Below, piece by piece: positions 3,917 through 58,651 of a stretch of 64,000 nt of DNA. Within the stretch, counting starts at the first letter, position 1. Each line of letters starts with the position of its first letter. Source of the stretch: Candidatus Poribacteria bacterium. GTDB lineage: Bacteria > Poribacteria > WGA-4E > PCPOR2b. Where the stretch lies: the NCBI GenBank assembly GCA_022826645.1, contig JAJDUM010000027.1, positions 12,033-76,032 on the forward strand, given 5' to 3'. The position numbers were made by a program, and so were the translations under genes. Under the pieces are notes generated by a model that saw only the letters and a list, made by a program, of their open reading frames with translations, did not search any database and was not told where the DNA came from.

Positions 3917-3967
3917 ATCAAAACCTCAATTGGAAGTTGAACCTTGGAGTGGGTGGGAAGTTCTCTG

Positions 3968-4819: not shown

Positions 4820-4820
4820 C

Positions 4821-44731: not shown

Positions 44732-44737
44732 GAGGAG

Positions 44738-45742
44738 ATGGCAATGCCCGTTCCAGTGCTAACGTTCTTCAACAATAAAAGCGGTGCTGGCAAGACATCC
44801 CTTGTCTATCATCTGGCGTGGATGCTATCCGATATGGATTATCAAGTGCTCGCTTGTGACCTCGATCCGCAGGCGAACCTCACCCGCATGTTTATCAATG
44901 AGGAACGTCTAGAAATACTGTGGCCTGACGATGGAGAGAGGAAAACCATCTATAATGCCCTCCAACCGCTTTTGGACGGGACCGGAGACATTGAGCAACC
45001 TTACCTAGAACGGATAGCACCGAAGTTGAGCCTCATCGTAGGGGATCTCTCGTTATCCGCTACCGAAGATGAATTTTCGAGCCAATGGCAAGCGTGTCTT
45101 GACCGTCGCCCACGTGCTTTCCGTGTGATTTCAGCACTATGGCGCATTTTACAAACAGCAGCGAACGATAGTGGTGCTGAGATTGTCTTGGTAGATGTGG
45201 GGCCCAATCTAGGGGCTTTGAATAGAGCGGTGTTGGTTGCGACGGATTACGTTATCGTTCCGCTTGGAACAGATCTGATTTCACTTCAAGGACTGCGGAA
45301 CCTTGGTCCGATGCTACGAGATTGGCACAGTGGATGGAAAGATAGATGCGACCGCAACCCCATCCCTGACCTATGTATACCCAATGGATGGATTCAACCC
45401 ATCGGCTATCTGGTACGGCAACCTGATATCCGTTTGAATCGCCCTATAACGGTTGATGACAAATGTTTCAACCGTATGCCAGAGGAATATGCCCGAAACC
45501 TACTAGGCGATAACAATGGCCCCTATCCTGAGACACCGGCACAAGATGAAAAACACGCCCTCGCTATTGTCAAGCACTATCGAAGCCTAGTACCGATGGC
45601 ACAGGAGGCACGAAAGCCCATGTTCCATCTCACTCCGGCCGATGGGGCCATCGGCAGCCATGCCGCCGCCGCCAATGGGGCTCGTGCGGATTTCAAGGCT
45701 TTGGCTGAGAAGATAATCGCAAGGATTGAACTTGGGATATGA
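44738..45742 (+). CDS. ParA/MinD-family ATPase
   Basis: Deviant Walker A 'NNKSGAGKTS' and 'ACDLDPQANL'. It is 334 aa, with a C-terminal extension. Confidence 0.82.
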   Translation: MAMPVPVLTFFNNKSGAGKTSLVYHLAWMLSDMDYQVLACDLDPQANLTRMFINEERLEILWPDDGERKTIYNALQPLLDGTGDIEQPYLERIAPKLSLIVGDLSLSATEDEFSSQWQACLDRRPRAFRVISALWRILQTAANDSGAEIVLVDVGPNLGALNRAVLVATDYVIVPLGTDLISLQGLRNLGPMLRDWHSGWKDRCDRNPIPDLCIPNGWIQPIGYLVRQPDIRLNRPITVDDKCFNRMPEEYARNLLGDNNGPYPETPAQDEKHALAIVKHYRSLVPMAQEARKPMFHLTPADGAIGSHAAAANGARADFKALAEKIIARIELGI

Positions 45743-45795: not shown

Positions 45796-48700
45796 ATGTC
45801 CAATCGTAACACCCGAATCCGAGACAATCACGATCGTGGAACGGTCGGCGATTTTCTGAAAGCCAACATCGAAAACGGTTCGGCACTCTCAGTTGTATCG
45901 GCATACTTCACAATCCACGCCTTTGAAGGACTCAAAGAACATCTGTGGAAAATTGACGGCCTTCGATTCCTGTTCGGTGAACCCGACTTTATCAAAAATC
46001 TCGACGCAAGGGACACCGATCCGAAAGCCTTCAAAATTGAGGACGAGGGGTTGCAGCTTGACCAGACGCTTCAACAGAGACCGATTGCAAAAGCGTGCGC
46101 TGAGTGGATAGACAAGAAGGTGGAGATTAAGTCAACCCGACAATCGAATCTACTCCATGGGAAAATGTATCACATCGCCAACAACGACGCAGAAAAAGCC
46201 ATCATGGGCAGTTCTAATTTTACCGTGCAGGGACTCGGGTTGAGTCAGTCCAACAATAACATTGAGCTCAACTTAGAGGTGGAGAACGACCAAGACCGTC
46301 GGGACCTGAAAGCGTGGTTTGATGACCTCTGGAACGACGATAAACGGGTCGAAGATGTCAAGAAAAAGGTAATTGACAGGTTAGAGAAGCTGGGGGACGA
46401 TCAGGCACCAGAGTTCATCTATTACAAGACCCTTTACGAGTTGTTCCGGGATGAATTAGAAACCCGCATGAACAACGAGCAGAAAATAGAGGACACGCAC
46501 CTATACGACACACAAATTTGGGATACGTTGTACGCCTTTCAGAAAGATGGTGTAAAAAGCGTCATCGCCCGTCTGTTGCGTCACAACGGCTGCATCCTCG
46601 CTGATAGCGTGGGATTGGGCAAGACCTACACAGCGTTGGCGGTTATCAAGTTCTTTGAATTAAGGAATGAGCGTGTACTGGTGTTGTGTCCCAAAAAACT
46701 GCGCGAAAACTGGGCACTATATCCAGTGTATTACAGTCAACTCAACAACCCGTTCGAGGAAGACAAATTCGGCTACTCGCTGCTATCGCATACCGACCTA
46801 TCCCGCTACGAAGGCGACGCCGACGGCACCGGTTTGGAGGGGTTTAACTGGAGTAATTTTGACTTGGTGGTGATCGACGAATCGCACAACTTCCGCAACG
46901 ACACCAAACCCACCCTTGATGATGCGGGTAATATCACCCGCCACAGTCGCTACACACGGTTGTTAGAGGAGGTTATCAAGGAGGGCGCCCAAACGAAGGT
47001 GCTGATGCTTTCAGCGACGCCGGTCAATACGTCCCTCATTGACCTGCGGAATCAGATCTACCTGATGACCGGAAAGCGCGAAGAGGTCTTCCAGAAAAGT
47101 TTGGGGATCAGCAATATCCGCGCTTTGTTGGGGCAGGCACAAAAGGAGTTTAAGGCATGGGAAGATGATAAGGACAGTGGTAGAGATAAATCGAAATTGC
47201 TGGCTAAATTGGGAGCCGACTTCTTCCAGTTACTCGGCGGCGTTTCTATCGCCCGCTCTCGACGGCACATTGAGACTTTCTACGCCGATGAAATCGATAG
47301 AATCGGCGAGTTCCCCGAACAACTGAAACCGGAAAACCATCACCCACCCACCGACCTGACCGGCGCACTCTCCTATAAATATTTGGCGGATCAGATAGAG
47401 AAATTCTCCCTGTCTGTCTACACGCCGTCCAGTTACGTCATCGGTGAAGCAGCAAAACAGCGATTGGCACAAGAGAAACAGGACTTCCGTTTCAACCAGT
47501 TGGACCGTGAGAAGTTCCTGATTGGAATGATGCAGACCAACTTTCTCAAGCGTCTGGAGAGTTCCGCACACTCCCTCACAGAAACGCTCCAACGCACAAT
47601 CGGCAAAATTGACACCTTGTTGGAAAAGATCGAACGTTATGAACAAAACCAGCAGATGCCGGAAACAGAAAGTGACCGCCTCGCAGAGACCGACATCCTT
47701 CCGGAGGACGACGAAGACGATGAGGAGTTTCTGGTAAATAAGGCGCGTTACCCCTATCACTTGGGAGAATTGGATTGCGTCCGTTGGAAAGAAGATCTCA
47801 TAAAGGACAAAGGGACGTTGGGGGAGGCGTTGGAGAGCGTCAAAGGGATCACGCCGGAGCGAGACGGCAAACTTCAAGCGATTAAGGCGCATATTCGCGA
47901 CAAGGCAGCACACCCCCCGACCGACAAGGACGGAGAGATCAATCGCAAGCTCTTAGTATTCACCACCTTCAAGGACACGGCGGAGTACCTCTATGATAAC
48001 CTCTCGGATCTGGCAGCGGAACTGAACCTGAAGGTGGCGATGGTCTCCGGTGACGTGACGCGCACCCAATCCCGACCAAACAACTTCAACGCCATCCTCA
48101 CCAATTTCGCGCCACGAGCCCGGGGACGCGCCGATAACGACGGCGATGAAATTGACCTGCTAATCGCCACCGATTGCATATCGGAGGGACAAAATCTACA
48201 GGATTGCGACACGGTGCTGAACTATGACATCCACTGGAATCCGGTGCGTATCATCCAACGCTTCGGCCGTATTGACCGCATCGGCAGCCGCAACCTCTCG
48301 GTGCGAATGATTAACTATTGGCCCACCGAGGATATGGAGGTCTATCTGCGCCTGCAAAGCCGTGTCGAGGCTCGCATGGCACTCGCGGACGCGGCGGCAA
48401 CCGGCAGTGAGGACCCGTTGAACGAATCGGCTTATGAACAAGCCCAAATGGAACTGAATTTCCGCGACCAGCAGCTGAAACAACTGCGCGAAGAGGTGTT
48501 AGATTTCGACGACCTCTCCGACGGGGTTGTTCTGAGCGATTTTACGCTCGACTACTTCTTCACCCAACTATTGCGGTATCTGGAAAAGAACAAAAAGGAG
48601 TTGGAAGCGGCACCCAACGGCGTGTATGCTGTCACCCACGATGAAAGCCATCCGACAGAAACCGGGGTCATCTTTTTTCTCCGCCAGCGGAATGCCAACA

Positions 48701-49089
48701 CAGATATACAGAGAAAAACAGCCAGTCCTATCCACCCCTTTTATGCGGTCTATATCCGCAACAGTGACGACATCCGCTACGGTTGTGCAAACACCAAACA
48801 GGTGCTCGATCTGTTTGAATCGGCGGCGGTCGGTAAGATCGATCCGTTGCATGACCTATGTATCCAGTTTGACACCGAAACCCAAAATGGCAAGGACATG
48901 ACGCTCTACAACAAACTATTGAAAACGGTCATCGCTCACATCAGCAGAGCGCACACAACAACACAAACCAGAAATCTGAAGCGTGGGGGTCCACGCGACT
49001 TAAAACTAACTCCGAGATCCGAAACCCCCAGAGACACCAGCGATTTTGAGTTAGTAACGTGGCTGGTTATCACAACCCCGCAATCATAG
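45796..49089 (+). CDS. PLD-family (single HKD) nuclease domain fused to SNF2-family helicase
   Basis: The N-terminal 'HGKMYHIANND...GSSNFTVQG' is an HxK...GSxN motif. Helicase motifs 'DSVGLGKT', 'VVIDESHNFRN', 'LSATPVNT' and 'QRFGRIDRIG'. Confidence 0.85.
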   Translation: MSNRNTRIRDNHDRGTVGDFLKANIENGSALSVVSAYFTIHAFEGLKEHLWKIDGLRFLFGEPDFIKNLDARDTDPKAFKIEDEGLQLDQTLQQRPIAKACAEWIDKKVEIKSTRQSNLLHGKMYHIANNDAEKAIMGSSNFTVQGLGLSQSNNNIELNLEVENDQDRRDLKAWFDDLWNDDKRVEDVKKKVIDRLEKLGDDQAPEFIYYKTLYELFRDELETRMNNEQKIEDTHLYDTQIWDTLYAFQKDGVKSVIARLLRHNGCILADSVGLGKTYTALAVIKFFELRNERVLVLCPKKLRENWALYPVYYSQLNNPFEEDKFGYSLLSHTDLSRYEGDADGTGLEGFNWSNFDLVVIDESHNFRNDTKPTLDDAGNITRHSRYTRLLEEVIKEGAQTKVLMLSATPVNTSLIDLRNQIYLMTGKREEVFQKSLGISNIRALLGQAQKEFKAWEDDKDSGRDKSKLLAKLGADFFQLLGGVSIARSRRHIETFYADEIDRIGEFPEQLKPENHHPPTDLTGALSYKYLADQIEKFSLSVYTPSSYVIGEAAKQRLAQEKQDFRFNQLDREKFLIGMMQTNFLKRLESSAHSLTETLQRTIGKIDTLLEKIERYEQNQQMPETESDRLAETDILPEDDEDDEEFLVNKARYPYHLGELDCVRWKEDLIKDKGTLGEALESVKGITPERDGKLQAIKAHIRDKAAHPPTDKDGEINRKLLVFTTFKDTAEYLYDNLSDLAAELNLKVAMVSGDVTRTQSRPNNFNAILTNFAPRARGRADNDGDEIDLLIATDCISEGQNLQDCDTVLNYDIHWNPVRIIQRFGRIDRIGSRNLSVRMINYWPTEDMEVYLRLQSRVEARMALADAAATGSEDPLNESAYEQAQMELNFRDQQLKQLREEVLDFDDLSDGVVLSDFTLDYFFTQLLRYLEKNKKELEAAPNGVYAVTHDESHPTETGVIFFLRQRNANTDIQRKTASPIHPFYAVYIRNSDDIRYGCANTKQVLDLFESAAVGKIDPLHDLCIQFDTETQNGKDMTLYNKLLKTVIAHISRAHTTTQTRNLKRGGPRDLKLTPRSETPRDTSDFELVTWLVITTPQS

Positions 49090-49680: not shown

Positions 49681-52600
49681 ATGACCAACGAAGAAATCAG
49701 AAAGAAGGAAGAAATCGAATCCGCCTTGGCTGCGATGATTGATGGCGATTTTTTGGAAACCGCAAATAACCTACTTGAGGTGTTAGATTACCACGCGCCA
49801 CTTACTGAGGAACTTCTGGAAACGGTGGATAACTTTATTCAGGAATACCCGGCTGAAAATGAAAACACCAAGACGGAACAAGAATTCCGTGAGAATGCCA
49901 AATCAATAGAATTAGTATCTCAAGTTGGGAGCGATGGAATTGCTGACAGGCAGCCAGACCGCTTGGAGTCAAAAACCTTCGACGGGGGACTTATACAGAG
50001 TTTTGTTTTCTGTGCTGTCGAATTAAAAGATAACGACTACTCCCGGAGCAAATACGCCCAATTCACACGAGAGATCAACAAACGGCTCCCCCTTGCGACT
50101 GTGGTGTTTTTTCGGGTTCAAGACCGTTTAACCATAGGTTTTGTCGGTCGCCGCCAACACAAGCGTGACCCAAATCTCGACGTACTGGAACAGGTCAGCC
50201 TAATCAAGGACATTCGACTAAATAAGCCACACCCGGCGCATAGAGAGATTCTGTATGAACTTTCGTTGGACGAATGCGCGAAGTGGATGGACGCCAAGGA
50301 CCAACCGGAAAACTTCGATGGCTTGCTCGCGGCGTGGCTTGCCCGACTGGACACCTCCGAACTCAACAAACGCTTCTTCAACGAACTCGCCAACTGGTAT
50401 TTCTGGGCTGTCGATCAGGTGACGTTCCCAGACGACGCGGGGGAAGACGTCGAAGTCCGCAACGCCACCAGCGTCATCCGCCTGCTCACACGACTAATTT
50501 TTGTGTGGTTCGTCAGGGAAAAGGGACTGGTGCCGGACGCGCTCTTTAACCCAAACGATCTCGATGACATCCTCAATAATCTCGATCCGGGGGAAAGCAC
50601 CTACTACAAAGCAATCCTTCAAAACCTGTTCTTTGCCACGCTCAATCAGGAGATGAACACCGAGCAGTATCCCAATAACCGCAAATTTCGCGGTGAGGGA
50701 CGGCAGCACTACAACATCACATCGTTCTATCGTTACAAAGACTGTTTCATTGACCCGGACGATGCCTTACGACAGTTTGAGGCAATCCCTTTTCTGAATG
50801 GCGGGCTATTTGAGTGCTTGGATGGGCAATCTAAAGATGATCCTACAGAGATTCTACGGATTGACGGCTTTTCCGACAGGAACGACATTCCGCTGCATGT
50901 CCCTAATGAACTGTTCTTTTCGGAGGAACGGAGCGTTGACCTCAATGCCGCTTACGGCACAAGAGGGAAACGACATAAAGTACGCGGCCTGATTCACATT
51001 CTCAGCAGCTACAAATTCACGATTGCCGAGAACACCCCGATTGAGGAGGAGGTCGCTCTGGACCCCGAACTGCTCGGCAAGGTGTTTGAAAACCTCCTCG
51101 CCGCCTACAACCCCGAAACCAAAGTAACCGCCCGCAAACAGACCGGCTCCTACTACACCCCCCGCGAGATTGTCAACTACATGACCGACGAGTCGTTGAT
51201 TGCCTATCTAAAAAATGAGCTCATCCGCCCCGTTGAGTCCGATGCACAAAAAGCGGAGATCGAGAAGAAACTTCGCGGGCTGCTCGCCTATAACGATGCC
51301 CCAAACCCATTCGATGAGGCGGAAACCGAGGTGCTAATCAAAGCCATTGACGCCCTCAAGATCCTTGATCCCGCCTGCGGTTCGGGCGCGTTTCCGATGG
51401 GGGTGCTGCATAAACTGGTATTCATTCTCGGAAAATTGGATCCGCGCAATGAGCAGTGGAAGCAACGGCAAATCGCCAGAGTCGAAAGTACCATTGAGAG
51501 GGCGGAGGACATTGACGATAGCACATTTCGGGAAAATACTATCCGCGAACTTGAGGGGGAAATTGAGAACATCAACGAGGCATTTGAACGGAACGAACTG
51601 GACTACGGGCGGAAACTCTACCTGATTGAAAACTGCATCTACGGCGTGGACATTCAGCCCATCGCCACCCAGATTGCCAAGCTCCGCTTCTTTATCTCCC
51701 TCATCGTAGATCAGCAGATTGACGGATCACGGGAGAATCACGGGGTACGCCCGCTGCCGAACCTGGAAACGAAGTTTGTCGCGGCGAATACGCTCATCGG
51801 CGTGGATAAACCGTTGCAAACACAAATCCGCAGCCCGCAGGTTGACCGCAAGGAGAAGGAACTGGAGGATGTGCGCCGCAGACACTTCACCGCTCGCACC
51901 CCAAGCACCAAAGCCAAATACCGTGCCCTCGATGCCCAAATCCGCACCGAAATTGGTGAATTGCTCAGAGACCTCGGCTTTCCCGATGAGACGACTGAGA
52001 AAATCGCTAATTGGGACCCCTACAATCAGAACGCAAGTGCGGATTGGTTCGATTCGGAATGGATGTTTGGGGTCAGGGATGGGTATGATATTACGATTGG
52101 CAATCCGCCGTATATTCAATTGCAAAGCGATGGTGGACAATTAGGGCGTTTGTATGTACCGTGCAATTTTGATAGCTTTATCAGGACAGGGGATATTTAT
52201 TGCCTGTTCTATGAAAAAGCGAATCAACTGTCGAAAAAGAGCGGGCATGTCTGTTTTATTACTTCTAACAAATGGATGCGCGCAGCGTATGGCAAAAAGC
52301 TGAGAGATTATTTTATCTCACATACCCAACCGATTCAACTGCTAGATATGGGACCAGATGTATTTGATGCCACCGTGGACACCAACATCCTGCTACTGCA
52401 AAACGCCCTATCCGATGGCAGTACACACCTCCCCTTCACAGCTACAACTATCAAATCTGATTTCGACAAACATGCTGGCGACATAGCCAAATACCTGAAG
52501 GATAACGGTGTGACTATGGAACTGCCCTCTAAAGGCGAACCGTGGGCGATACTCTCACCGACTGAACTTGCCCTGAAACGCAAGATAGAAGAGGTTGGCA

Positions 52601-53409
52601 AACCGCTCAAAGACTGGGATATAAACATCTATCGTGGAATTGTAACAGGTTTCAATGAAGCATTTGTCATAGACGAAGCCAAGCGTGAAGAATTGATAGC
52701 GGTTGACCCAAAGTCAGCCAAAATCATCAAACCACTTCTGCGCGGACGAGACATCAAACGCTATCATGCCCAATGGGTGGGATTGTATTTGATAAGTACT
52801 TTTCCTGTGCTTGATTTGAACATTGACGATTATCCTGCGGTTAAAAGTCATCTTCTGGAGTTTGGCAGAGATCGATTGGCACAGGTTGGTAAAACACTTG
52901 CTGACGGCACTAAATCTCGTAAGAAGACAGGAAATAAATGGTTTGAGTTACAAGATCAAATCGCTTACTACCCCGAGTTTGCAAAGGAGAAAGTTATTTA
53001 TCCAGAGATAACAAAGTTTCTCCCATTTGTTTACGACCCAAATGAGTTCTACATCAATAATAAGAGTTTTATCATTACGGGTGGAAATTATTTGAAATAT
53101 CTTACAGGATATCTTAACTCTCGGATCGCAGCAAAGTGGATTCGTGAAAACTGTCCAGAATTGGGTGATGACAGAAGAGAGTTGAGAAAAGTATTCTTTG
53201 AGAATATTTTAATTCCTCCTGTTACGGAAGCGAACCAACACCTTGTCACGCAGATAGAAACGCGGGTGGACCAAATCCTCGACGCCAAAGACACGAATCC
53301 AGACGCGAATGTATCCGAACTTGAAAAAGAGATTGATCAGATAGTATACTTGTTATACGATCTCACCGATGAAGAAATTAAAATTGTGGAGGCTGCGGAA
53401 ACTGTCTGA
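49681..53409 (+). CDS. Type IIG/IIL restriction-modification enzyme (PglX/DrmMI-like N6-adenine methyltransferase with putative N-terminal PD-(D/E)xK nuclease and C-terminal TaqI_C-type TRD)
   Basis: 'DPACGSGAFPMG' (motif I) and 'ITIGNPPYIQ' (motif IV NPPY). N-terminal 'DGG..FVFCAVELK' (D...ExK). The C-terminal target-recognition domain is homologous to the next gene's C-terminus. Confidence 0.85.
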   Translation: MTNEEIRKKEEIESALAAMIDGDFLETANNLLEVLDYHAPLTEELLETVDNFIQEYPAENENTKTEQEFRENAKSIELVSQVGSDGIADRQPDRLESKTFDGGLIQSFVFCAVELKDNDYSRSKYAQFTREINKRLPLATVVFFRVQDRLTIGFVGRRQHKRDPNLDVLEQVSLIKDIRLNKPHPAHREILYELSLDECAKWMDAKDQPENFDGLLAAWLARLDTSELNKRFFNELANWYFWAVDQVTFPDDAGEDVEVRNATSVIRLLTRLIFVWFVREKGLVPDALFNPNDLDDILNNLDPGESTYYKAILQNLFFATLNQEMNTEQYPNNRKFRGEGRQHYNITSFYRYKDCFIDPDDALRQFEAIPFLNGGLFECLDGQSKDDPTEILRIDGFSDRNDIPLHVPNELFFSEERSVDLNAAYGTRGKRHKVRGLIHILSSYKFTIAENTPIEEEVALDPELLGKVFENLLAAYNPETKVTARKQTGSYYTPREIVNYMTDESLIAYLKNELIRPVESDAQKAEIEKKLRGLLAYNDAPNPFDEAETEVLIKAIDALKILDPACGSGAFPMGVLHKLVFILGKLDPRNEQWKQRQIARVESTIERAEDIDDSTFRENTIRELEGEIENINEAFERNELDYGRKLYLIENCIYGVDIQPIATQIAKLRFFISLIVDQQIDGSRENHGVRPLPNLETKFVAANTLIGVDKPLQTQIRSPQVDRKEKELEDVRRRHFTARTPSTKAKYRALDAQIRTEIGELLRDLGFPDETTEKIANWDPYNQNASADWFDSEWMFGVRDGYDITIGNPPYIQLQSDGGQLGRLYVPCNFDSFIRTGDIYCLFYEKANQLSKKSGHVCFITSNKWMRAAYGKKLRDYFISHTQPIQLLDMGPDVFDATVDTNILLLQNALSDGSTHLPFTATTIKSDFDKHAGDIAKYLKDNGVTMELPSKGEPWAILSPTELALKRKIEEVGKPLKDWDINIYRGIVTGFNEAFVIDEAKREELIAVDPKSAKIIKPLLRGRDIKRYHAQWVGLYLISTFPVLDLNIDDYPAVKSHLLEFGRDRLAQVGKTLADGTKSRKKTGNKWFELQDQIAYYPEFAKEKVIYPEITKFLPFVYDPNEFYINNKSFIITGGNYLKYLTGYLNSRIAAKWIRENCPELGDDRRELRKVFFENILIPPVTEANQHLVTQIETRVDQILDAKDTNPDANVSELEKEIDQIVYLLYDLTDEEIKIVEAAETV

Positions 53410-53465
53410 ATCACGGATTAGACGGATTTAGCGGATAGCGCGGATTTTTTAATCCGTGTCCTTCG

Positions 53466-53507
53466 TTAATCCGCGATAATCATCGATTCTGACAGTGAGA
53501 GGATTGG
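53466..53507 (+). repeat. family-D repeat 'taatccgcgataatca(t/g)cgattctgacagtgagaggattg'
   Basis: Copies at 58694-58736 and 58939-58974. The flanking 'tctgaatcacgga' is also at 42961 and 58981. Confidence 0.7.
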
Positions 53508-53589
53508 AATTGTGGAGGAAGCTATCCAACTGAAAGTGGGGTTGGGTTAAATAATATTTGACAGGTACGGAATTAAGGAGACCAAGGGA

Positions 53590-56253
53590 ATGAATAAAGT
53601 TTTTATCTCCTATGTTAGGGAAAATATAGAAATAGTTGACCGGCTCTACCAAGAACTCACAGCACACGGGATCGAAGTCTGGCTGGATCGGGAAAATATT
53701 GATCCAGGATCTCGCTGGGAGCAAGCAATTCGGAGAGCTATTCAACAAGGAGCTTTTTTCATTGCCTGTTTCTCCGAGGAATATCATAATCGTGGTCAGA
53801 CCTACATGAACCAAGAACTTACGTTCGCAATTGATGAGCTGCACCAACGCTCCCCTGATCAAATATGGTTTATTCCCGTAAAATTAAACGAATGCGAGAT
53901 TCCTGACCGTGACATTGGTGGCGGGAAAACCTTACAAGCCCTACAGTATGTCAATCTCTATGAAAACTGGGACGATAGTATCCAACGTATTCTTAAAGTC
54001 ATTCAACCCGGATTATCTGAACCTGTTATAAACGCAAATGCTGTAGAGCAATCCGAAACGCAAGTTCAGCCACAGGAGGCAAACGCCTATTTCGATCAAG
54101 GCAATGTTTACCAAAGCAAGGGTGATTATGACCATGCCATCGAAGCTTTTAACACAGCAATAGAACTCAAACCTGATTTTGCCGAAGCCTATACCAATCG
54201 CGGTCTAGCTCACCAGAACAAAGGTGATTTTGACCTTGCCTTTAAAGACCACGCCAAAGCGATAGATCTGAATCCCGATTATGCCGAAGCCTATTTCAAT
54301 CGCGGTGGTGCTCATAAGAGCAAAAACAATTATGTTCATGCCCTTGTAAACTTTAACACAGCAATAGAACTCAAACCCGATTTTGCCGGGGCCTATAACC
54401 ATCGTGGCGTAGTTTACCTTGATAGAGGTGATGATGATTGTGCCATCGCAGATTTTACCAGAGCGATAGATCTGAATCCCGATTTTATTGCCGAAGCCTA
54501 TACCAATCGCGGACTTGCTTACCATAAAAAAGGTGAAATTGACAATGCCCTCAAAGACTATACCAAAGCGATAGACCTGAATCCTAATTTTGTTGCCGAA
54601 GTCTATTACAATCGCGGGTCCGCTTACGGGAACAAAGGGGATTTTGACCGCGCTATTGGGGATTTGAACAAAGCAATAGAGCTCAAACCCGATGATGCCA
54701 AAGCCTATAGCAATCGTGGAGTTGCTTACCACGGCAAGGGCGATTTTGACCATGCTATTACAGACTATACCAAAGCAGCAAAACTCAACCCCGATTCTAC
54801 TGAAATCTATTACAATCGCGGAGTTGCTTACGGGGCAAAAGGCGATTTTGACCGCGCTATTATAGATTATACCAAAGCGATACAACTCAACCCCGATTCT
54901 CCCATAGCCTATAATAATCGCGGGGTAGCTTACCACGGCAAAGGCGATTTTGACCGCGCTATTACAAACTATACCAAAGCGATAAACCTGAATCCCGTTT
55001 TTGTCAATGCCTATTGCAATCGTGGTGAGACGTGGTTACACCTAGAAGAGTGGGATAAAGCCAGGGCAGACCTGAGTGTCGCCAGAAAGATGGGGATAGA
55101 TATCGTTGCTTTATTTCATAATGAATACAAGAACGTTGAGGCGTATGAACGGGCAAATCGTGTTAAATTGCCCGAAGATATCGCCGCGATGCTGACGCAG
55201 CGGCGGCGGAGCCGTTTCCCCAAAACCGAAAAGTTCTTGAGTGCTGACGGCACCCCCCTTGAATCGCCCGATATATTGAATCTGCTTGCAAAACTCCGCA
55301 ACGCGGGACCACCCCTGTCGCAATACCTTCAGACGCGCCCCACTTTTGGACTCAAGACCGGTGCGAGCGGAGCCTTTGTCGTGGATAGTGCGACGCGAGA
55401 TCAACTCATTGCGGATCACCCTGCATCTGCTGATATTTTGAAACCGTTTCTGCACGGACGGGACATCAGACGCTGGGGGGTGGAGAGCCCCGATTCATGG
55501 TTAATTTTTGTCCACCGTCGCATAGAGATAGACCGTTATCCTGCCATCCGAAAACACCTGGAACAATATAGATCGGTCTTGAGCAAAAGGGCGGGTAAAC
55601 AGAAATGGTACGAACTGCCAACCACCAAAAAAGGCACCGAGCGCTTTACACAAACAAAACTCATTTGCCCAAATAACTACAATCACCAAACCTTCGCTGT
55701 TGATACGGACGGGTTTTACTGTGGAGATACATGCTACCTGATTCCGACTGAGGAGACATGGTTATGCGGTCTCCTCAATTCCCGCGCTGTGGAGTGGTTC
55801 TATTCGCAGGTGTCAAAACAGTTGACGGGGGATTATCTTCGGGCGCGCAGCCGCCATATCCAAGAAATCCCTATCCCCGAGCTCACGTCAACACAGAAAT
55901 CCCTAATCGGCAAAATCGTTGATTATCTCATCTTTCTTCAGGGACAACCGACGACGAGGAGCGGGGATTTAGCACATGCCCGCGATGCTGTGATGCTCGG
56001 GTATTTTGAGCGGATCATTGACGGACTGGCTTATGAGTCCTATCTACGTGAAGAACTGCATCAAGGGGAAAAACAGTTCTTCAACCCGTTGTTGGATGAG
56101 CGGTTGCCGCAACTTGAAGAAATTCGGGGCGATAAAATGGCCGCGTTACAAGAAATCTTCGAGCGATTGTATGAAAGAATGCATCCGATCCGGCGAAACC
56201 TTTTCTTTCTGAACAGTGTAAAACCGATCCGCATCATTGAGGACAGAACGTGA
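53590..56253 (+). CDS. TIR-domain protein with ~10 TPR repeats and a C-terminal TaqI_C-like DNA target-recognition domain (candidate defense effector/sensor)
   Basis: N-terminal 'KVFISYVREN...GIEVWLD...IDPGSRW...FIACFSEEY...MNQELTFAI' is a bacterial TIR_2 pattern including a candidate catalytic Glu. Then 34-aa 'AEAYxNRGxAYxxKGDFDxAIxDYTKAIxLNPD' repeats. The C-terminal 'FGLKTGASGAFVVD...ILKPFLHGRDIRRW...YPAIRKHL...KWYEL...LLNSRAVEWF' aligns with the TRD of the upstream RM enzyme. Confidence 0.8.
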   Translation: MNKVFISYVRENIEIVDRLYQELTAHGIEVWLDRENIDPGSRWEQAIRRAIQQGAFFIACFSEEYHNRGQTYMNQELTFAIDELHQRSPDQIWFIPVKLNECEIPDRDIGGGKTLQALQYVNLYENWDDSIQRILKVIQPGLSEPVINANAVEQSETQVQPQEANAYFDQGNVYQSKGDYDHAIEAFNTAIELKPDFAEAYTNRGLAHQNKGDFDLAFKDHAKAIDLNPDYAEAYFNRGGAHKSKNNYVHALVNFNTAIELKPDFAGAYNHRGVVYLDRGDDDCAIADFTRAIDLNPDFIAEAYTNRGLAYHKKGEIDNALKDYTKAIDLNPNFVAEVYYNRGSAYGNKGDFDRAIGDLNKAIELKPDDAKAYSNRGVAYHGKGDFDHAITDYTKAAKLNPDSTEIYYNRGVAYGAKGDFDRAIIDYTKAIQLNPDSPIAYNNRGVAYHGKGDFDRAITNYTKAINLNPVFVNAYCNRGETWLHLEEWDKARADLSVARKMGIDIVALFHNEYKNVEAYERANRVKLPEDIAAMLTQRRRSRFPKTEKFLSADGTPLESPDILNLLAKLRNAGPPLSQYLQTRPTFGLKTGASGAFVVDSATRDQLIADHPASADILKPFLHGRDIRRWGVESPDSWLIFVHRRIEIDRYPAIRKHLEQYRSVLSKRAGKQKWYELPTTKKGTERFTQTKLICPNNYNHQTFAVDTDGFYCGDTCYLIPTEETWLCGLLNSRAVEWFYSQVSKQLTGDYLRARSRHIQEIPIPELTSTQKSLIGKIVDYLIFLQGQPTTRSGDLAHARDAVMLGYFERIIDGLAYESYLREELHQGEKQFFNPLLDERLPQLEEIRGDKMAALQEIFERLYERMHPIRRNLFFLNSVKPIRIIEDRT

Positions 56254-57671
56254 GAATTACTGAGATTGAAATCAAAAACTTCAAAGCCTTTTATGGCACC
56301 TACCGAATCGACCTACGCAAGACTGGAAAGAACCTATTGGTTTACGGTGAAAATGGGAGCGGAAAATCGTCCCTGTATTTTGCGTTAAAGTTGTTCTTGG
56401 AATCCGGCGATAATCCTTCACATAGATTTGAAAACGATCAGAACATCTTTATCGGAGATCCGGGCTATATCAAGCTGTGTCTCCGCGCTGACCGGCGGTC
56501 AAATCAGATGACCTACGAATGGTCGGAGAGCGTTAGAGAGACGGATGACGAACTGATTATTGAGGCATCAAGGGCAAAGGGCTTCCTCGATTATAAGGAC
56601 CTTCTGGAGACGCACTACGTCCATCGTGAAAGTAATACTGTCAATGTATTCAATTTGCTGGTTGAGACACTCTTGGCAAACACCGTCAACCCCCGGACAA
56701 ATCGAACCCTTGCGCAGGATTGGGCTGTTATTCAGCCACCGTATCCACGCCGAAACGCAACAAGTCAAATTGCGGACCTTGAAAGCTGGATAGAGATTTT
56801 CAACACTGAATTAGCAAACAGATTAGCAGAGCTGCAGCCAAAAGTATCCGAAATCCTTGGCAAGTTTGGACACAACGTTGCCCTTAATTTCGATTTTCCG
56901 GGGGTTAAATATAACCGTGAGGACAGAACGCTTGATAATCAGGGGATTTTCCTAACGGTTGAGCTCTTCGATAGAAATATTCCCGAACATCACCGCTTCC
57001 TGAACGAAGCGAGGCTATCGGCAATCGCTATCGCTATCTACTTTTCGTCAATCCTGATTCAGCCAGAAGGTGCCCTGAAGATTCTCGCCTTAGATGATGT
57101 GCTGATCGGCTTAGACATGTCAAACCGACTGCCGGTGCTTGATATGCTAGCCGAGTATTTTTCAGACTACCAAATCTTTTTGACGACGTACGATAAGGCG
57201 TGGTATGAGATTGTCAGACAACGGACATCTGATGCCGATTGGGAATACACCGAATTCTATACTTCAGAGTCCAACGAACACGAGATTCCCATTCATGTGC
57301 AAGATAAGCCGTATCTTGAAAAGGCGAAAGTGTATTTTAACGACAACGACTACAAAGCCTGCGTCATCTACCTTCGCACCGCCTTTGAAGCAGCTATCAA
57401 GAAATTCTGCGATAGGAAAAACCTCCGAGTTAGATACCGTGAAAATCCGAAAGAACTACAAAGCAACGACTTCTGGGAACCGATAAAAAAGATGGAGTTA
57501 GACGATGGTACACCCTTTTTAGGGCAGGAGCTCATTGACGAGATTGAACTGTACCGAAGTATTATCCTAAACCCACTCAGCCATGCTCGTATTGTCCCCG
57601 TCGTCAAAAAGGAAGTTTCTGAAGCAATAGAAGCGGTGGAAAAACTTGAAGATAAATTAGCAGGAAATTAA
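56250..57671 (+). CDS. ABC/SMC-type (RecF/OLD-like) AAA ATPase, translationally coupled to the TIR-TPR-TRD gene
   Basis: Walker A 'GENGSGKSS', a signature-like 'EARLSAIAIA', Walker B 'ILALDDVLIGLD' and H-loop-like 'FLTTYD'. The start overlaps the upstream stop by 4 nt. Confidence 0.8.
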   Translation: MRITEIEIKNFKAFYGTYRIDLRKTGKNLLVYGENGSGKSSLYFALKLFLESGDNPSHRFENDQNIFIGDPGYIKLCLRADRRSNQMTYEWSESVRETDDELIIEASRAKGFLDYKDLLETHYVHRESNTVNVFNLLVETLLANTVNPRTNRTLAQDWAVIQPPYPRRNATSQIADLESWIEIFNTELANRLAELQPKVSEILGKFGHNVALNFDFPGVKYNREDRTLDNQGIFLTVELFDRNIPEHHRFLNEARLSAIAIAIYFSSILIQPEGALKILALDDVLIGLDMSNRLPVLDMLAEYFSDYQIFLTTYDKAWYEIVRQRTSDADWEYTEFYTSESNEHEIPIHVQDKPYLEKAKVYFNDNDYKACVIYLRTAFEAAIKKFCDRKNLRVRYRENPKELQSNDFWEPIKKMELDDGTPFLGQELIDEIELYRSIILNPLSHARIVPVVKKEVSEAIEAVEKLEDKLAGN

Positions 57672-57859: not shown

Positions 57860-58651
57860 TTGATGCGGAAAGGCGATTACTCGATGAATACGACAGCAGA
57901 AGAAGTGGAATTTGATTATCAAGCGTATATGAAGGACTACGTGCCGGATCCAGACAAAATTCATTGGGGCCCCGAGGCACGTCAAAAACGACGAGAGGCA
58001 GCAATCCATAACAATCGCGGTCTTGCTTATCGGGAGGAAGGGGATTTTGGCCGTGCCATTGAAGCCTTTACCAAAGCGATAGAACTGAATCCTAACTATG
58101 CCGTAGCCTATAACAATCGTGGTTTGGCTTACAACAATGTAGGCGAATTTGACCGTGCCATTACGGACTATACCAAAGCGATAGAACTCAAACCCGATTT
58201 TGTTGAAGCCTACAATCATCGCTATGATGCTTACTATGCTAAAGGCAATTGTGACCGCGCTATCATAGAATACAGGGATATCGTCCAAAAGGTTATTGGG
58301 GCTGCGCTTGAGGTGCATAGGTCCTTAGGCAACGGCTTTCAAGAGGTGATTTACCAGCAAGGATTGGCGTTTGAATTAGAACAAGCCGGTTTGACATTTG
58401 CCCGTGAAGTTAAGCGCGACATTTTCTATAAGGAATTGCCGGAGCCTATAGGCACGCGTCGAGCGGATTTCGTGGTCGAAGAAAAGGTATTGGTGGTATT
58501 GAAGGCTATTTCTCGATTGGATAAGGTACACATAGTTCAGGTATTCAACTACTTAAAGGCATATCGGCTAGAAGTAGGATTACTGCTCAATTTCGGTTCA
58601 AAAAGTTTGACATTCCAAAGATTGGTTCTTTCGCAACCGGATCGTCGCTGA
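57860..58651 (+). CDS. TPR-repeat + GxxExxY-family (PD-(D/E)xK-fold) protein
   Basis: Three TPR units nearly identical to those in the TIR protein. The C-terminus 'VIGAALEVHRSLGNGFQEVIYQQ...RADFVVEEKVLVVLKA...QVFNYLKAYRLEVGLLLNFG' matches the GxxExxY family. Confidence 0.7.
   Translation: MMRKGDYSMNTTAEEVEFDYQAYMKDYVPDPDKIHWGPEARQKRREAAIHNNRGLAYREEGDFGRAIEAFTKAIELNPNYAVAYNNRGLAYNNVGEFDRAITDYTKAIELKPDFVEAYNHRYDAYYAKGNCDRAIIEYRDIVQKVIGAALEVHRSLGNGFQEVIYQQGLAFELEQAGLTFAREVKRDIFYKELPEPIGTRRADFVVEEKVLVVLKAISRLDKVHIVQVFNYLKAYRLEVGLLLNFGSKSLTFQRLVLSQPDRR

What the first reader, a model, noticed from the sequence alone, without database searches (positions are those of the whole stretch)
53590..57671. 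TIR-TPR protein carrying a Type IIG-style DNA target-recognition domain, coupled to an ABC/SMC-like ATPase: candidate novel sequence- or methylation-sensing defense module
The 887-aa protein at 53590-56253 has three parts. It opens with a clear bacterial TIR domain ('FISYVRE...VWLD...PG..W...FIACFSEEY...QELTFAI', with a Glu in the position used by TIR NADases). Ten TPR repeats follow. The C-terminal ~230 aa align residue by residue with the TaqI_C-type TRD of the adjacent Type IIG RM enzyme (e.g. 'IYRGIVTGFNEAFVIDEAKREELIAVDPKSAKIIKPLLRGRDIKRY' vs 'TFGLKTGASGAFVVDSATRDQLIADHPASADILKPFLHGRDIRRW', and 'NSRIAAKWI' vs 'NSRAVEWF'). The gene's stop overlaps the start of an ABC/SMC-type ATPase by 4 nt, so the two are translationally coupled. 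I do not recognise TIR + TPR + restriction-enzyme TRD as a described defense architecture. It suggests an effector (NAD+ depletion or signalling nucleotide production) whose DNA specificity is borrowed from, and possibly matched to, the neighbouring RM enzyme, for example sensing unmethylated target sites. The ATPase would act as partner or regulator.
Basis: partly seen in the sequence, partly recalled or inferred. Interest (0 to 1): 0.92.

Follow-up and report, generated by a model that had tools for sequence, protein, structure and literature searches.

The report
Restriction-derived sensor protein with coupled ATPase
The TIR-TPR protein with a restriction-enzyme DNA-recognition domain is real and belongs to a conserved, undescribed two-gene module (recognition-domain protein plus an ATPase with an RNase-like tail) found in sponge symbionts and cyanobacteria, but its recognition domain does not follow the specificity of the neighbouring restriction enzyme.

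Summary
ORF 53590-56253 encodes TIR (aa 4-135), about 10 TPRs, and a TaqI_C-type TRD plus C-terminal helical region. Its stop overlaps the GTG start of an ABC/SMC-type ATPase (GTGA).

The fusion is not a one-off. Across 84 related loci, mostly Candidatus Poribacteria, the TRD module is followed by this ATPase, and 75 of 76 junctions have the same 4-nt overlap. N-termini vary: TIR in 42 loci, FRG in 9, HNH in 1, TPR only in the rest. In cyanobacteria, including a Nostoc conjugative plasmid, the pair exists as a bare 338-aa TRD protein plus ATPase, with no TPR, TIR or methyltransferase. The ATPase carries a conserved C-terminal HEPN-like domain.

The "specificity borrowed from the neighbour" idea fails. 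The TPR-linked TRD is conserved (median 62% identity, dN/dS 0.11-0.19) and co-varies with the ATPase. The neighbouring methyltransferases' own TRDs are hypervariable (median 19%) and uncorrelated with it. 56 of 84 loci have no such methyltransferase within 10 kb upstream.

Best reading: an autonomous abortive-infection-type module that resembles PrrC in logic, with TIR as an added effector. It matches no family in PADLOC or NCBIfam, and I found no description in the papers searched. Mechanism is inferred, not shown.

The parts
53590..56253 (+). Gene for the 887-aa TIR-TPR-TRD protein
   Evidence: ORF list and translation. Pfam domains. An identical copy lies on an independent ENA metagenome contig.
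53599..53994 (+). TIR domain (aa 4-135) with putative catalytic Glu76
   Evidence: Pfam TIR_2, E 8e-26. Nearest solved TIRs are Cat1, PdTIR and SPARTA TIR-APAZ, all weak. The Glu motif is present in 42/42 TIR-bearing relatives.
54082..55089 (+). TPR array, about 10 repeats (aa 165-500)
   Evidence: Pfam TPR_1 with 9 scored stretches, E 5.5e-96. Array length varies from 2 to 22 motif matches among relatives.
55096..56250 (+). Family-conserved C-terminal module (aa 503-887): TPR end-cap and linker, TaqI_C-type TRD, C-terminal helical region
   Evidence: 294 homologues and 80 genome loci. 29% identity to the neighbour's TRD, E 3e-25. 39% identity to the stand-alone Nostoc protein over aa 576-883, E 1e-72. 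35-48% identity to the C-termini of 1000-1400 aa Eco57I/TaqI_C enzymes. dN/dS 0.11-0.19.
55441..55875 (+). Core TaqI_C (PF12950) match, aa 618-762
   Evidence: Pfam E 1e-15. M.BseCI TRD is the only solved-structure hit for the family profile.
56250..57671 (+). Translationally coupled ABC/SMC-type ATPase, 473 aa, GTG start
   Evidence: GTGA overlap and GAGGA ribosome-binding site. The same 4-nt overlap occurs in 75/76 loci. Pfam SMC_N, AAA_23, AAA_15. Walker A GENGSGKS (K39), Walker B LALDD (D282/D283) and a T-T-Y314-D motif are conserved in 58 homologues. Co-varies with the TRD, Spearman 0.62.
57297..57668 (+). C-terminal HEPN-like domain of the ATPase (aa ~350-473)
   Evidence: This is the only confident part of the AF2 model (pLDDT ~70-80). 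The six best Foldseek PDB hits are all HEPN proteins (prob 0.99-1.0, target TM 0.62-0.68, E 0.05-0.14). Pfam DUF4145, E 0.018. R376-x3-E380 and N441-P-L-x-H445 are invariant from Poribacteria to Nostoc.
49681..53409 (+). Neighbouring Type IIG-like Eco57I N6A methyltransferase with its own TaqI_C TRD (facultative partner)
   Evidence: Pfam Eco57I 2.2e-34, TaqI_C 4.2e-10. PADLOC REase_MTase_IIG 1.3e-149. The same family is intact upstream in 24 of 84 loci and partial in 4. Its own TRD is hypervariable.
45796..49089 (+). HKD(PLD)-SNF2 helicase-nuclease upstream of the methyltransferase (context; rarely conserved)
   Evidence: Pfam PLDc_2, SNF2-rel_dom, Helicase_C. PADLOC 'HKD+Snf2' C3a139, 1.5e-109. 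Found only in the window, L007, L081, L027 and L012.
53410..53589 (.). Intergenic spacer between the methyltransferase and the TIR gene, with nested CGGATT/AATCCG inverted repeats and an AAGGAG ribosome-binding site
   Evidence: Sequence and repeat scan. Function not tested.
57860..58651 (+). TPR + PD-(D/E)XK_3 protein directly downstream (possible accessory gene in the closest relatives)
   Evidence: Pfam PDDEXK_3, 2.6e-33, plus TPR. Homologues lie downstream in L007, L008 and L027.

Best explanation
Genes 53590-56253 and 56250-57671 form an autonomous two-gene conflict (abortive-infection-type) module. Its invariant core has two proteins.
- (i) A protein built from the C-terminal half of a Type IIG enzyme (TRD plus helical region), without any methyltransferase domain.
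- (ii) A translationally coupled ABC/SMC-type ATPase that ends in a HEPN-like domain.

In sponge-symbiont lineages, protein (i) has acquired an N-terminal TPR array and swappable effector heads (TIR here; FRG or HNH elsewhere). There the pair often sits next to a Type IIG-like methyltransferase.

Proposed working (inferred, by analogy with PrrC/EcoprrI). The restriction-derived TRD module holds the ATPase-HEPN partner latent and acts as the sensing surface. It would work as a constant bait for something that attacks or occupies restriction-enzyme TRDs, such as phage anti-restriction proteins, or for a fixed DNA ligand. On triggering, nucleotide-dependent rearrangement of the ATPase would release the toxic outputs: a HEPN-type RNase activity, and in this gene TIR-mediated NAD+ cleavage brought about by TPR/ATPase-driven assembly.

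Shown here: the domain composition, the coupling, the conservation, the co-variation of TRD with ATPase, independence from the neighbour's TRD, and the variable N-terminal heads. Inferred: defence function, the trigger, physical TRD-ATPase contact, and the RNase and NADase activities.
For: - Core pair conserved. The ATPase lies directly downstream in most of 84 loci, with an identical 4-nt stop/start overlap in 75/76.
- The pair also exists as a bare 338-aa TRD protein plus 477-aa ATPase on Nostoc plasmid pANSO36B and in other cyanobacteria, without TPR, TIR or methyltransferase.
- Purifying selection: dN/dS 0.11-0.19 for the TRD and 0.15-0.30 for the ATPase (one outlier at 0.48), including loci without a methyltransferase.
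- TRD identity co-varies with ATPase identity (Spearman 0.62) but not with the methyltransferase TRD (0.06).
- N-terminal heads are swapped as in known immune proteins: TIR of two subtypes, FRG, HNH, or none. The TIR Glu motif is kept in 42/42.
- HEPN-like tail on the ATPase: Foldseek top hits are all HEPN, Pfam DUF4145 E 0.018, and R376-x3-E380 plus N441..H445 are invariant.
- The pair sits in varied contexts and defence-island-like surroundings: toxin-antitoxin genes, an IS element, OLD-like ABC/DUF4435, Prok-E2/JAB, an integrase, a conjugative plasmid.
- Precedent: PrrC is an ABC-type NTPase plus a C-terminal RNase with an Arg-x3-Glu...His triad. It is silenced by the linked restriction enzyme and activated by a phage anti-restriction peptide (PMC1484252).
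Against: - No experiment exists, and no defence phenotype is known for any member.
- The HEPN assignment rests on a model with overall pLDDT 46 (only the tail is confident), Foldseek E-values of 0.05-0.14, and a sub-threshold Pfam hit.
- The canonical Rx4-6H motif is not met: the sequence reads L-N-P-L-x-H, with a basic residue four positions further upstream.
- No sequence homology to PrrC/RloC was detected (AAA_13 is absent or matches only the Walker A region).
- The position where ABC ATPases usually have the H-loop His is Tyr in all members, so ATP turnover may be atypical.
- About 25 family members have no recognisable N-terminal effector.
- ATPases are fragmented or missing in about 22 of 84 loci, so many copies are decaying.
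- No relatives were found in viral contigs.
- TRD-ATPase contact was not modelled; the AF2 model of the TRD was poor.
Confidence: 0.4

Rival explanations
1. DNA-sensing module of the Lamassu/RloC type. The conserved TRD still binds DNA, either a fixed sequence or a structural feature of invading or replicating DNA. The SMC/Rad50-like ATPase clamps or scans DNA, and joint DNA engagement switches on TIR and/or HEPN.
For: - The domain is a bona fide TaqI_C/BseCI-type TRD, up to 48% identical to the TRDs of full Type IIG enzymes.
- The ATPase's nearest profile and structure matches are SMC/Rad50/RecF heads and LmuB.
- Swappable effector heads resemble LmuA (established knowledge of Lamassu).
- RloC's ATPase is DNA-dependent (abstract of PMC3458546, seen).
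Against: - The ATPase has no long coiled coil or zinc hook, and no LmuA or LmuC counterparts are present.
- A constitutively expressed sequence reader with a fixed site, and no cognate methyltransferase in 56/84 loci, would see host DNA too. Some additional discrimination would be needed.
- DNA-contacting residues could not be mapped because the model was poor.
Confidence: 0.22
2. The TRD reads the same target site as the adjacent Type IIG enzyme and fires the TIR on unmethylated sites, with the ATPase as regulator.
For: - The gene is adjacent to a Type IIG-like methyltransferase in the window and in 24-28 of 84 loci.
- The two TRDs are homologous.
- A remnant of the methyltransferase lies upstream in L002/L016 and L027.
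Against: - Methyltransferase TRDs vary (median 19% identity) while the TPR-linked TRD stays at 55-90%. There is no correlation (Spearman 0.06). Window versus L015: 90% versus 24%.
- Within the window the two TRDs are only 29% identical.
- 56/84 loci and all three cyanobacterial contexts lack the methyltransferase, yet the pair is under purifying selection.
- At the same insertion site, one locus (L033) has the methyltransferase plus the pair, while about 12 loci have the pair alone.
Confidence: 0.05
3. Accessory subunits of the Type IIG-like restriction system. The TRD protein and the ATPase load, regulate or extend the methyltransferase/helicase-nuclease, as the ATPase MtsA and co-regulator MtsB do for the methyltransferase in MANTIS. 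TIR would be a secondary add-on.
For: - Gene order helicase-nuclease, methyltransferase, TRD protein, ATPase lies on one strand in the window.
- Linkage to the same methyltransferase family recurs.
- Precedent for ATPase-dependent methyltransferase loading: bioRxiv 10.64898/2026.09.23.753747.
Against: - The pair persists and is conserved without the methyltransferase or the helicase.
- The helicase is present in only 5 loci.
- The methyltransferase already carries its own TRD.
- The pair's proteins are unrelated to MtsA/MtsB, Hma or MADS components.
Confidence: 0.1
4. Not defence. The protein is a eukaryote-like TIR/TPR protein used by sponge symbionts to interact with the host, with the TRD and ATPase linkage incidental.
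For: - The TPR/TIR-bearing form is almost confined to sponge-associated Poribacteria, Latescibacterota and Gemmatimonadota MAGs.
- TPR-rich proteins are a known feature of sponge symbionts (literature seen).
Against: - The conserved core is the TRD plus ATPase, not TIR/TPR, and it also occurs in free-living cyanobacteria and on a plasmid.
- The 4-nt coupling to an ABC ATPase is strict.
- The N-terminus ('MNKVFISY...') has no obvious signal peptide (by eye).
- The surrounding genes relate to restriction and defence.
Confidence: 0.05

Closest known systems
PrrC (and RloC) anticodon nucleases linked to restriction-modification loci
   Same: - A two-domain partner protein: an ABC-type NTPase head followed by a small C-terminal RNase-type domain classed in the HEPN superfamily (PMC3710099).
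- An Arg-x3-Glu ... His pattern (PrrC R320/E324/H356, PMC1484252; here R376/E380/H445).
- Genetic coupling to restriction-derived protein(s).
- 'Second-strike' logic.
   Different: - No detectable sequence homology to PrrC/RloC.
- The partner is not a complete Type I enzyme but a methyltransferase-less TRD fragment of a Type IIG-like enzyme, encoded immediately upstream with a 4-nt overlap.
- The Arg-Glu to His spacing differs, and the canonical HEPN Rx4-6H motif is not met.
- There are additional TIR, FRG or HNH heads.
Lamassu (LmuA effector + LmuB SMC-like ATPase)
   Same: - An SMC/Rad50-like ATPase is paired with a protein whose N-terminal effector domain is swapped between variants.
- LmuB is among the best PADLOC matches of the ATPase (1.2e-10 for the N-terminus, 4e-5 for the C-terminal half).
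   Different: - No long coiled coil.
- No LmuA (DUF4297) or LmuC homologues.
- The sensor part is TPR plus a restriction TRD.
- The ATPase carries its own HEPN-like tail.
PARIS (AriA ABC ATPase + AriB TOPRIM), triggered by the anti-restriction protein Ocr
   Same: A two-gene ABC-ATPase plus effector system that guards against anti-restriction (PMC11464382 abstract). The AriA profile hits the ATPase N-terminus (2.4e-10).
   Different: Only the Walker A region matches AriA. There is no DUF4435/TOPRIM partner. The trigger here is unknown.
Type IIG restriction-modification enzymes (Eco57I/MmeI-like) and gamma-class methyltransferases such as M.TaqI and M.BseCI
   Same: The C-terminal ~345 aa (TRD plus helical region) is homologous: 35-48% identity to the nearest full-length enzymes and 29% to the neighbour.
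   Different: - No methyltransferase or nuclease domain.
- The TRD is conserved rather than hypervariable.
- It is fused to TPR and effector heads and coupled to an ATPase.
Bacterial TIR immune proteins (Thoeris ThsB, SPARTA TIR-APAZ, Cat1, TIR-STAND/TPR conflict systems of Kaur et al. 2020)
   Same: A TIR_2 domain with the conserved Glu. A TPR array next to an effector head, as in NTPase-TPR conflict systems (PMC7159879).
   Different: - No ThsA, Argonaute, CARF or STAND NTPase.
- The NTPase is a separate ABC-type protein.
- PMC7159879 does not mention TaqI, TRD or ABC partners.

Membership tests
Type IIG restriction-modification enzyme | N6-adenine methyltransferase catalytic domain (Eco57I/N6_Mtase) in the same polypeptide | tested here: not met
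   No methyltransferase family among the Pfam hits of the 887-aa protein. PADLOC IIG profiles match only aa ~546-778.
Type IIG restriction-modification enzyme | TaqI_C/MmeI-type target recognition domain | tested here: met
   TaqI_C 1e-15. BLASTP 3e-25 to the neighbour's TRD. M.BseCI TRD 3e-11.
Type IIG restriction-modification enzyme | TRD varies with specificity between close relatives | tested here: not met
   The TPR-linked TRD has a minimum of 55% identity across loci. The methyltransferases' own TRDs have a median of 19%.
Thoeris | TIR protein (ThsB) encoded next to a ThsA (SIR2 or Macro/SLOG) effector | tested here: not met
   The ThsB profile gives only 1.4e-4 over aa 3-45. No ThsA-like protein among the 8 neighbouring proteins scanned.
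TIR NADase | TIR fold with the conserved catalytic glutamate | tested here: inconclusive
   TIR_2 8e-26. Glu76 lies in a (C/M)NxEL motif conserved in 42/42 members. Equivalence to the catalytic Glu was judged from motif position only. Activity was not tested.
Lamassu | LmuB SMC-type ATPase with coiled-coil arms, plus an LmuA effector protein | tested here: not met
   LmuB gives partial hits only. At 473 aa there is no room for long arms. No LmuA hit.
PARIS | AriA ABC ATPase plus AriB DUF4435/TOPRIM nuclease | tested here: not met
   AriA matches aa 1-73 only. No AriB-like gene in the window operon.
PrrC/RloC anticodon nucleases | ABC-type NTPase N-domain | tested here: met
   SMC_N, AAA_23 and AAA_15. 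Walker A, Walker B and a signature-like motif are conserved.
PrrC/RloC anticodon nucleases | C-terminal anticodon-nuclease domain homologous to PrrC, with the Arg-Glu-His triad | tested here: inconclusive
   HEPN-like fold by Foldseek and invariant R376-x3-E380 and H445. But there is no sequence match to AAA_13/PrrC and the spacing differs from R320/E324/H356.
PrrC/RloC anticodon nucleases | prrC embedded in a Type I hsdMSR locus | tested here: not met
   The partner is a TRD-only protein. The neighbouring enzyme is Type IIG-like and present in only about one third of loci.
Hma / BREX-related (MANTIS, Gao_RL) | SNF2-type helicase plus m5C or DUF1156-type methyltransferase plus DUF499 AAA+ ATPase | tested here: not met
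   Hma is defined with an m5C methyltransferase and a DUF499 ATPase (PMC8565338, PMC12839542). Here the methyltransferase is Eco57I-type N6A and the ATPase is ABC-type. Only the helicase hits HmaA (2.8e-27).
MADS | Eight-gene mad1-8 operon with Type-I-like methylase, specificity subunit and kinase; mad6-8 mandatory | tested here: not met
   Only mad3 (1.7e-11) and a weak mad5 profile hit. The operon composition differs (bioRxiv 10.1101/2023.03.30.534895).
DISARM class 1 | DrmA helicase and DrmB (DUF1998) together with DrmD, DrmMI and DrmC | tested here: not met
   DrmD and DrmMI profiles hit the helicase and methyltransferase below the NCBIfam cut-offs. No DrmB-like protein, and no separate DrmA-like protein, among the proteins scanned.
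STAND NTPase-TPR conflict systems (Avs-like; Kaur et al. 2020) | STAND (NACHT/NB-ARC-type) NTPase domain between the effector and the repeats in one polypeptide | tested here: not met
   No NTPase domain in the 887-aa protein.

The most novel reading that the evidence does not exclude
The restriction-enzyme TRD has been exapted as an 'integrated decoy'. It would be a constant bait that mimics the DNA-recognition face of Type IIG enzymes and captures phage anti-restriction proteins (DNA mimics or Stp-like peptides). Binding would be transduced through a dedicated ABC ATPase into two death effectors, a HEPN RNase and a TIR NADase. This would be a prokaryotic counterpart of plant NLR integrated decoys and a modular generalisation of the PrrC principle.
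Probability: 0.2. Interest if true: 0.85.

Novelty: new variant of a known kind. Interest (0 to 1): 0.62.

Why it matters
If the module is a defence system, it adds a new sensor type to bacterial immunity: a restriction-enzyme recognition domain that has lost its enzyme and become conserved. It would also extend the 'guard the restriction system' logic, known from PrrC and PARIS, to Type IIG-derived parts.

The family shows stepwise evolution. A bare TRD plus ATPase pair occurs in cyanobacteria and on a conjugative plasmid. TPR arrays and swappable TIR, FRG and HNH heads were added in sponge symbionts.

The Nostoc plasmid copy (WP_251960829.1 and WP_251960830.1) comes from a strain with a complete genome record, so the idea can be tested directly. 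It also offers a testable role for some of the abundant TPR/TIR proteins of sponge symbionts, which are usually read as host-interaction factors.

Tried and rejected
- **AF2 model of the TRD module.** With a 30-sequence alignment it gave pLDDT 50. This is too poor for a fold search or for mapping DNA-contact loops, so I did not use it.
- **AF2 model of the ATPase.** It gave pLDDT 46 overall. Only the C-terminal domain was usable.
- **Fold-search library.** The afdb50 library was unavailable.
- **Protein search with the ATPase.** The 120 listed hits were all at least 78% identical, so it gave no view of distant relatives. The tblastn search against plasmids supplied that view instead.
- **Viral contigs.** No relatives were found.
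- **Known systems considered and rejected.** I rejected Hma, MANTIS/Gao_RL, MADS, DISARM, Thoeris, Lamassu, PARIS and STAND-TPR as memberships.
- **One-off fusion or pseudogene?** I first suspected the fusion was created by insertion into a second Type IIG gene. I rejected this because long intact TIR/TPR-TRD ORFs recur in 70+ loci under purifying selection.
- **'Stand-alone' ~385-aa Poribacteria TRD proteins.** Most turned out to be truncated or split gene calls. They retain the TPR end-cap. L003 has an IS insertion and L006 has overlapping ORFs.
- **First count of the TIR glutamate.** It gave 33/42 because multi-domain HMM hits misplaced the extracted segments. A direct motif search gave 42/42.
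- **Upstream proteins without Pfam hits in L002-L004.** I tested whether they were split methyltransferase halves. They are TIR-TPR paralogues.
- **Papers and look-ups not available.** Krishnan et al. 2020 on ABC ATPases is not held. The look-up of P0391 failed.
- **L092.** It is a split Type IIG gene, not the module.

Full report
**1. What is in the window.**
The + strand between 43.5 and 58.7 kb carries an island flanked by housekeeping genes: MoeA and an enolase-superfamily gene upstream, a hydrolase and iPGM downstream. Its genes, in order:
- a Schlafen/AlbA_2-HATPase_c_4 protein (43505-44731);
- a ParA-like ATPase (44738-45742);
- an HKD(PLD)-SNF2 helicase-nuclease (45796-49089; PADLOC 'HKD+Snf2', 1.5e-109);
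- a 1242-aa Eco57I-type N6A methyltransferase with its own TaqI_C TRD (49681-53409; PADLOC REase_MTase_IIG, 1.3e-149);
- the 887-aa protein of the finding (53590-56253);
- a 473-aa ABC/SMC-type ATPase (56250-57671);
- a TPR-PD-(D/E)XK_3 protein (57860-58651).

An identical copy of the 887-aa protein lies on an independent ENA metagenome contig. The closest genomic relatives are Candidatus Poribacteria MAGs, so the window most likely comes from a sponge-associated poribacterium.

**2.
- Pfam assigns TIR_2 to aa 4-135 (8e-26), TPR families across aa ~165-500 (TPR_1, 5.5e-96) and TaqI_C to aa 618-762 (1e-15).
- BLASTP aligns aa 550-818 with aa 948-1226 of the neighbouring methyltransferase at 29% identity, E 3e-25.
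- A profile of the C-terminal module hits only the TRD of M.BseCI among solved structures (3e-11).
- Glu76 sits in the (C/M)NxEL motif.
- The stop and the ATPase's GTG start overlap as GTGA, with GAGGA 6 nt upstream.

**3. It is a family, not an accident.**
- A protein search with aa 510-887 found 294 relatives. Among the 120 listed are TaqI_C-only, TPR+TaqI_C and TIR+TPR+TaqI_C forms.
- A scan of one genome per species returned 80 loci. Nearly all are Candidatus Poribacteria, with a few Latescibacterota, one sponge Gemmatimonadota MAG and one Curvivirga MAG.
- In good assemblies the TRD-containing ORFs are long (600-1750 aa). Of 84 non-redundant loci, 42 begin with a TIR, in two subtypes: the window type 'FISYVRE...' and a commoner 'FITYSH...NCNKELAEAL' type. 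Nine begin with an FRG domain (Pfam 7e-13 and 5e-14 for the two tested), one with an HNH-like domain, and the rest with TPRs only.
- Most of the ~385-aa 'stand-alone' poribacterial proteins are truncated or split calls. They keep the TPR end-cap sequence. L003 has an IS element between the two halves, and in L006 the two halves are overlapping ORFs.
- TIR domains differ much more (30-40% identity) than the TRD part (77-82%) between the same proteins. TIR-TPR-only paralogues ending at the same cap motif sit just upstream in several loci. This points to N-terminal shuffling through the repeats.

**4. The invariant partner is the ATPase, not the methyltransferase.**
- The ATPase follows the TRD gene directly in most loci, with the same 4-nt overlap in 75 of 76 junctions. 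It is intact in 57 loci, shortened in 10, absent in 12 and cut by a contig end in 5.
- A methyltransferase of the window's family lies within 10 kb upstream in 24 loci intact and 4 partial, and is absent in 56. Remnants of its 3' end survive in L002/L016 and L027.
- One chromosomal site (after gene clusters c4-c5-c5-c6) holds methyltransferase plus pair in L033, but the pair alone in about 12 other genomes.
- The helicase-nuclease occurs in only five loci.
- A tblastn of the ATPase against plasmids found Nostoc cf. commune SO-36 conjugative plasmid pANSO36B. It carries a 338-aa 'TaqI-like C-terminal specificity domain-containing protein' (39% identical to window aa 576-883, E 1e-72). A 477-aa ATPase (47.6% identical) follows it with a 4-nt overlap. 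There is no TPR, TIR or methyltransferase nearby.
- A cyanobacterial clade of such 336-363-aa proteins exists. Two further contexts show the same bare pair, one of them beside Prok-E2/ThiF/JAB genes, an S1-P1 nuclease and an integrase.
- The core is therefore TRD protein plus ATPase. TPR arrays, effector heads and methyltransferase linkage are additions seen in the sponge-symbiont loci.

**5. Test of the 'matched specificity' idea.**
In 17 loci with methyltransferase, TRD protein and ATPase all intact:

| Region | Median pairwise identity |
|---|---|
| TPR-linked TRD | 62% (minimum 55%) |
| ATPase | 62% |
| Methyltransferase catalytic region | 61% |
| Methyltransferase's own TRD | 19% (range 6-96%) |

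- The last row is the usual signature of specificity swapping.
- TPR-linked TRD identity correlates with ATPase identity (Spearman 0.62) but not with the methyltransferase TRD (0.06, not significant).
- Window versus L015: 90% for the TPR-linked TRD and 24% for the methyltransferase TRD.
- dN/dS is 0.11-0.19 for the TRD module and 0.15-0.30 for the ATPase (one outlier at 0.48), including pairs of loci without any methyltransferase.
- The TRD module thus recognises something constant and evolves with the ATPase. It does not track the neighbour's target sequence. A sensor of the neighbour's unmethylated sites would be self-toxic in most genomes that carry it.

**6. Origin of the module.**
In an exhaustive search of 1.84 billion cluster representatives, the first ~10 hits are this family. 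The next hits (35-48% identity, covering query residues ~37-384) are the C-termini of 1000-1400-aa proteins with Eco57I and TaqI_C domains. The module is therefore the TRD plus C-terminal helical region of a Type IIG-like enzyme that lost the enzyme part. The window's own neighbour (29%) is not the donor.

**7. The ATPase has a second domain.**
- Fifty-eight intact homologues conserve Walker A (GENGSGKS, K39), a signature-like FLNEARLS, Walker B (LALDD) and T-T-Y314-D, where ABC ATPases usually have the H-loop His.
- The C-terminal ~125 aa is the only confident part of the AF2 model (pLDDT ~70-80 against 46 overall).
- Its six best Foldseek matches in the PDB are all HEPN proteins (1o3u, 2hsb, 2q00 chains A and B, 1ufb, 1wol; probability 0.99-1.0, target TM 0.62-0.68, E 0.05-0.14). 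SMC heads, HepT and Csm6 follow.
- Pfam gives DUF4145 (HEPN clan) at E 0.018.
- R376-T-A-x-E380 and N441-P-L-x-H445 are invariant from Poribacteria to Nostoc.
- The canonical HEPN Rx4-6H is not met (L-N-P-L-x-H), so RNase activity is plausible but unproven.

**8. Mechanism.**
Shown: composition, coupling, conservation, co-variation, swappable heads, and varied, often defence-like contexts.

Inferred: the pair is an abortive-infection-type module. The closest functional precedent is PrrC.
- PrrC is an ABC-type NTPase with a C-terminal RNase.
- Its catalytic triad is Arg320-Glu324-His356.
- It is kept latent by physical association with the linked Type Ic restriction enzyme.
- It is unleashed by the T4 anti-restriction peptide Stp (PMC1484252).
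- The PrrC/RloC family is classed as HEPN fused to an ABC ATPase, often in restriction operons (PMC3710099).

Here the 'restriction partner' is reduced to a conserved TRD fragment encoded just upstream. I propose that it masks the ATPase-HEPN protein and serves as a constant bait or sensor. In the window's version, triggering would also assemble the TIR heads for NAD+ cleavage. A DNA-sensing variant of this model (Lamassu/RloC-like) is the main rival. The evidence here cannot separate a protein trigger from a DNA trigger.

**9. Comparison with known systems.**
- No full-length match exists in PADLOC-DB 2.0 or NCBIfam 20.0. The TRD module and the ATPase tail have no NCBIfam family at all.
- Hma (m5C methyltransferase, DUF499 ATPase), MANTIS/Gao_RL and MADS share only generic ATPase or helicase similarity.
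- Thoeris, DISARM, Lamassu, PARIS and STAND-TPR systems each fail a defining feature (see the membership table).
- Full-text searches found no description of a TIR/TPR-TaqI_C protein or of the TRD-only plus ATPase pair. NCBI annotates the Nostoc genes only generically.

**10. Caveats.**
- The survey rests on MAGs, tblastn and simple ORF calling. TPR arrays are assembly-prone, and start codons of 'TPR-only' forms may be miscalled.
- The 10-kb flank could miss distant methyltransferases, although the upstream genes in those loci are unrelated housekeeping genes.
- The HEPN call is of moderate strength.
- No structure-based mapping of DNA-contact residues was possible.
- About a quarter of loci show decay of the ATPase.
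- No function has been tested for any member.

**11. Verdict.**
The finding is best filed as a new variant within ATPase-coupled, restriction-associated abortive-infection systems. It is of moderate-to-high interest (0.62) and can be tested with the Nostoc plasmid genes.

Noticed in passing
window 57860-58651 (+): A 263-aa fusion of three TPRs with a PD-(D/E)XK_3 (PF13366) nuclease-like domain lies directly downstream of the ATPase. Homologues of the nuclease part lie downstream of the TRD gene in L007, L008 and L027. It may be an accessory gene of this sub-lineage.
   Followed up: partly
window 45796-49089 and 49681-53409 (+): An HKD(PLD)-SNF2 helicase-nuclease (PADLOC 'HKD+Snf2', 1.5e-109) is paired with the Eco57I-type methyltransferase. 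The first ~150 aa of the methyltransferase are poorly conserved among 24 homologues. The D...ExK nuclease motif I expected (FDGG..VELK) is not clearly kept. The HKD helicase may therefore supply cleavage where it is present, which is in only 5 loci.
   Followed up: partly
methyltransferase homologues in L005-L085 (alignment): Poribacterial methyltransferases of this family keep their catalytic region (median 61% identity) but exchange TRDs almost completely (median 19%). Blocks of loci share near-identical TRDs (88-97%). This is a clear case of specificity-module swapping among sponge symbionts.
   Followed up: partly
window 56250-57671, residue Y314; all 58 homologues: In the conserved T-T-Y-D motif, the position where ABC ATPases usually carry the H-loop histidine is tyrosine in at least 98% of family members, the cyanobacterial ones included. 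This suggests slow or regulated ATP hydrolysis.
   Followed up: no
L002:7899-9842, L003:6868-8712 and 3764-5446, L004:8324-9967, L005, L058, L066, L085: TIR-TPR-only or TPR-only paralogues lie in tandem just upstream of the TRD gene. At least three of them (in L002, L003 and L004) end at the same end-cap motif ('...DIIALFHSNYESV..FE....LP.DIAAMLT') with which the TRD module begins. Together with divergent TIRs on near-identical TRDs, this looks like cassette-style N-terminal exchange through the repeats.
   Followed up: partly
window 53410-53589: The spacer between the methyltransferase and the TIR gene holds nested inverted repeats built from CGGATT/AATCCG units (for example GCGGATTTTTTAATCCG, unique in the window). 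It could be a terminator or an operator. Function unknown.
   Followed up: partly
window 43505-45742 (+); L027:2913-5131: A Schlafen/AlbA_2-HATPase_c_4 protein and a ParA-like ATPase form a conserved pair that travels with the HKD-SNF2 helicase in both the window and L027. This may be a separate small module of the island.
   Followed up: no
L003:1940-3604; also L008, L009, L010 (cluster c48): A ~554-aa single protein combining ABC_tran/AAA_15/AAA_21 with DUF4435 (OLD/PARIS-like), and a DUF433/DUF5615 toxin-antitoxin pair, recur next to the TRD-ATPase pair. This marks those sites as defence islands.
   Followed up: no
L087 (Nostoc cf. commune SO-36 plasmid pANSO36B, NZ_AP025734.1:195530-197976): The minimal TRD-only plus ATPase pair sits on a conjugative (MOBP, MPF_T) 229-kb plasmid, just downstream of a TrbI/VirB10 gene and two small hypothetical genes. 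It is a tractable source for experiments.
   Followed up: yes
window 17589-18815, 19502-23515, 33279-39290: Large secreted-type proteins are encoded elsewhere in the window: an LRR protein, an M36 peptidase with PPC/FlgD_ig domains, and a 2003-aa F5/8-type-C/CBM9 protein. They are unrelated to the finding.
   Followed up: no
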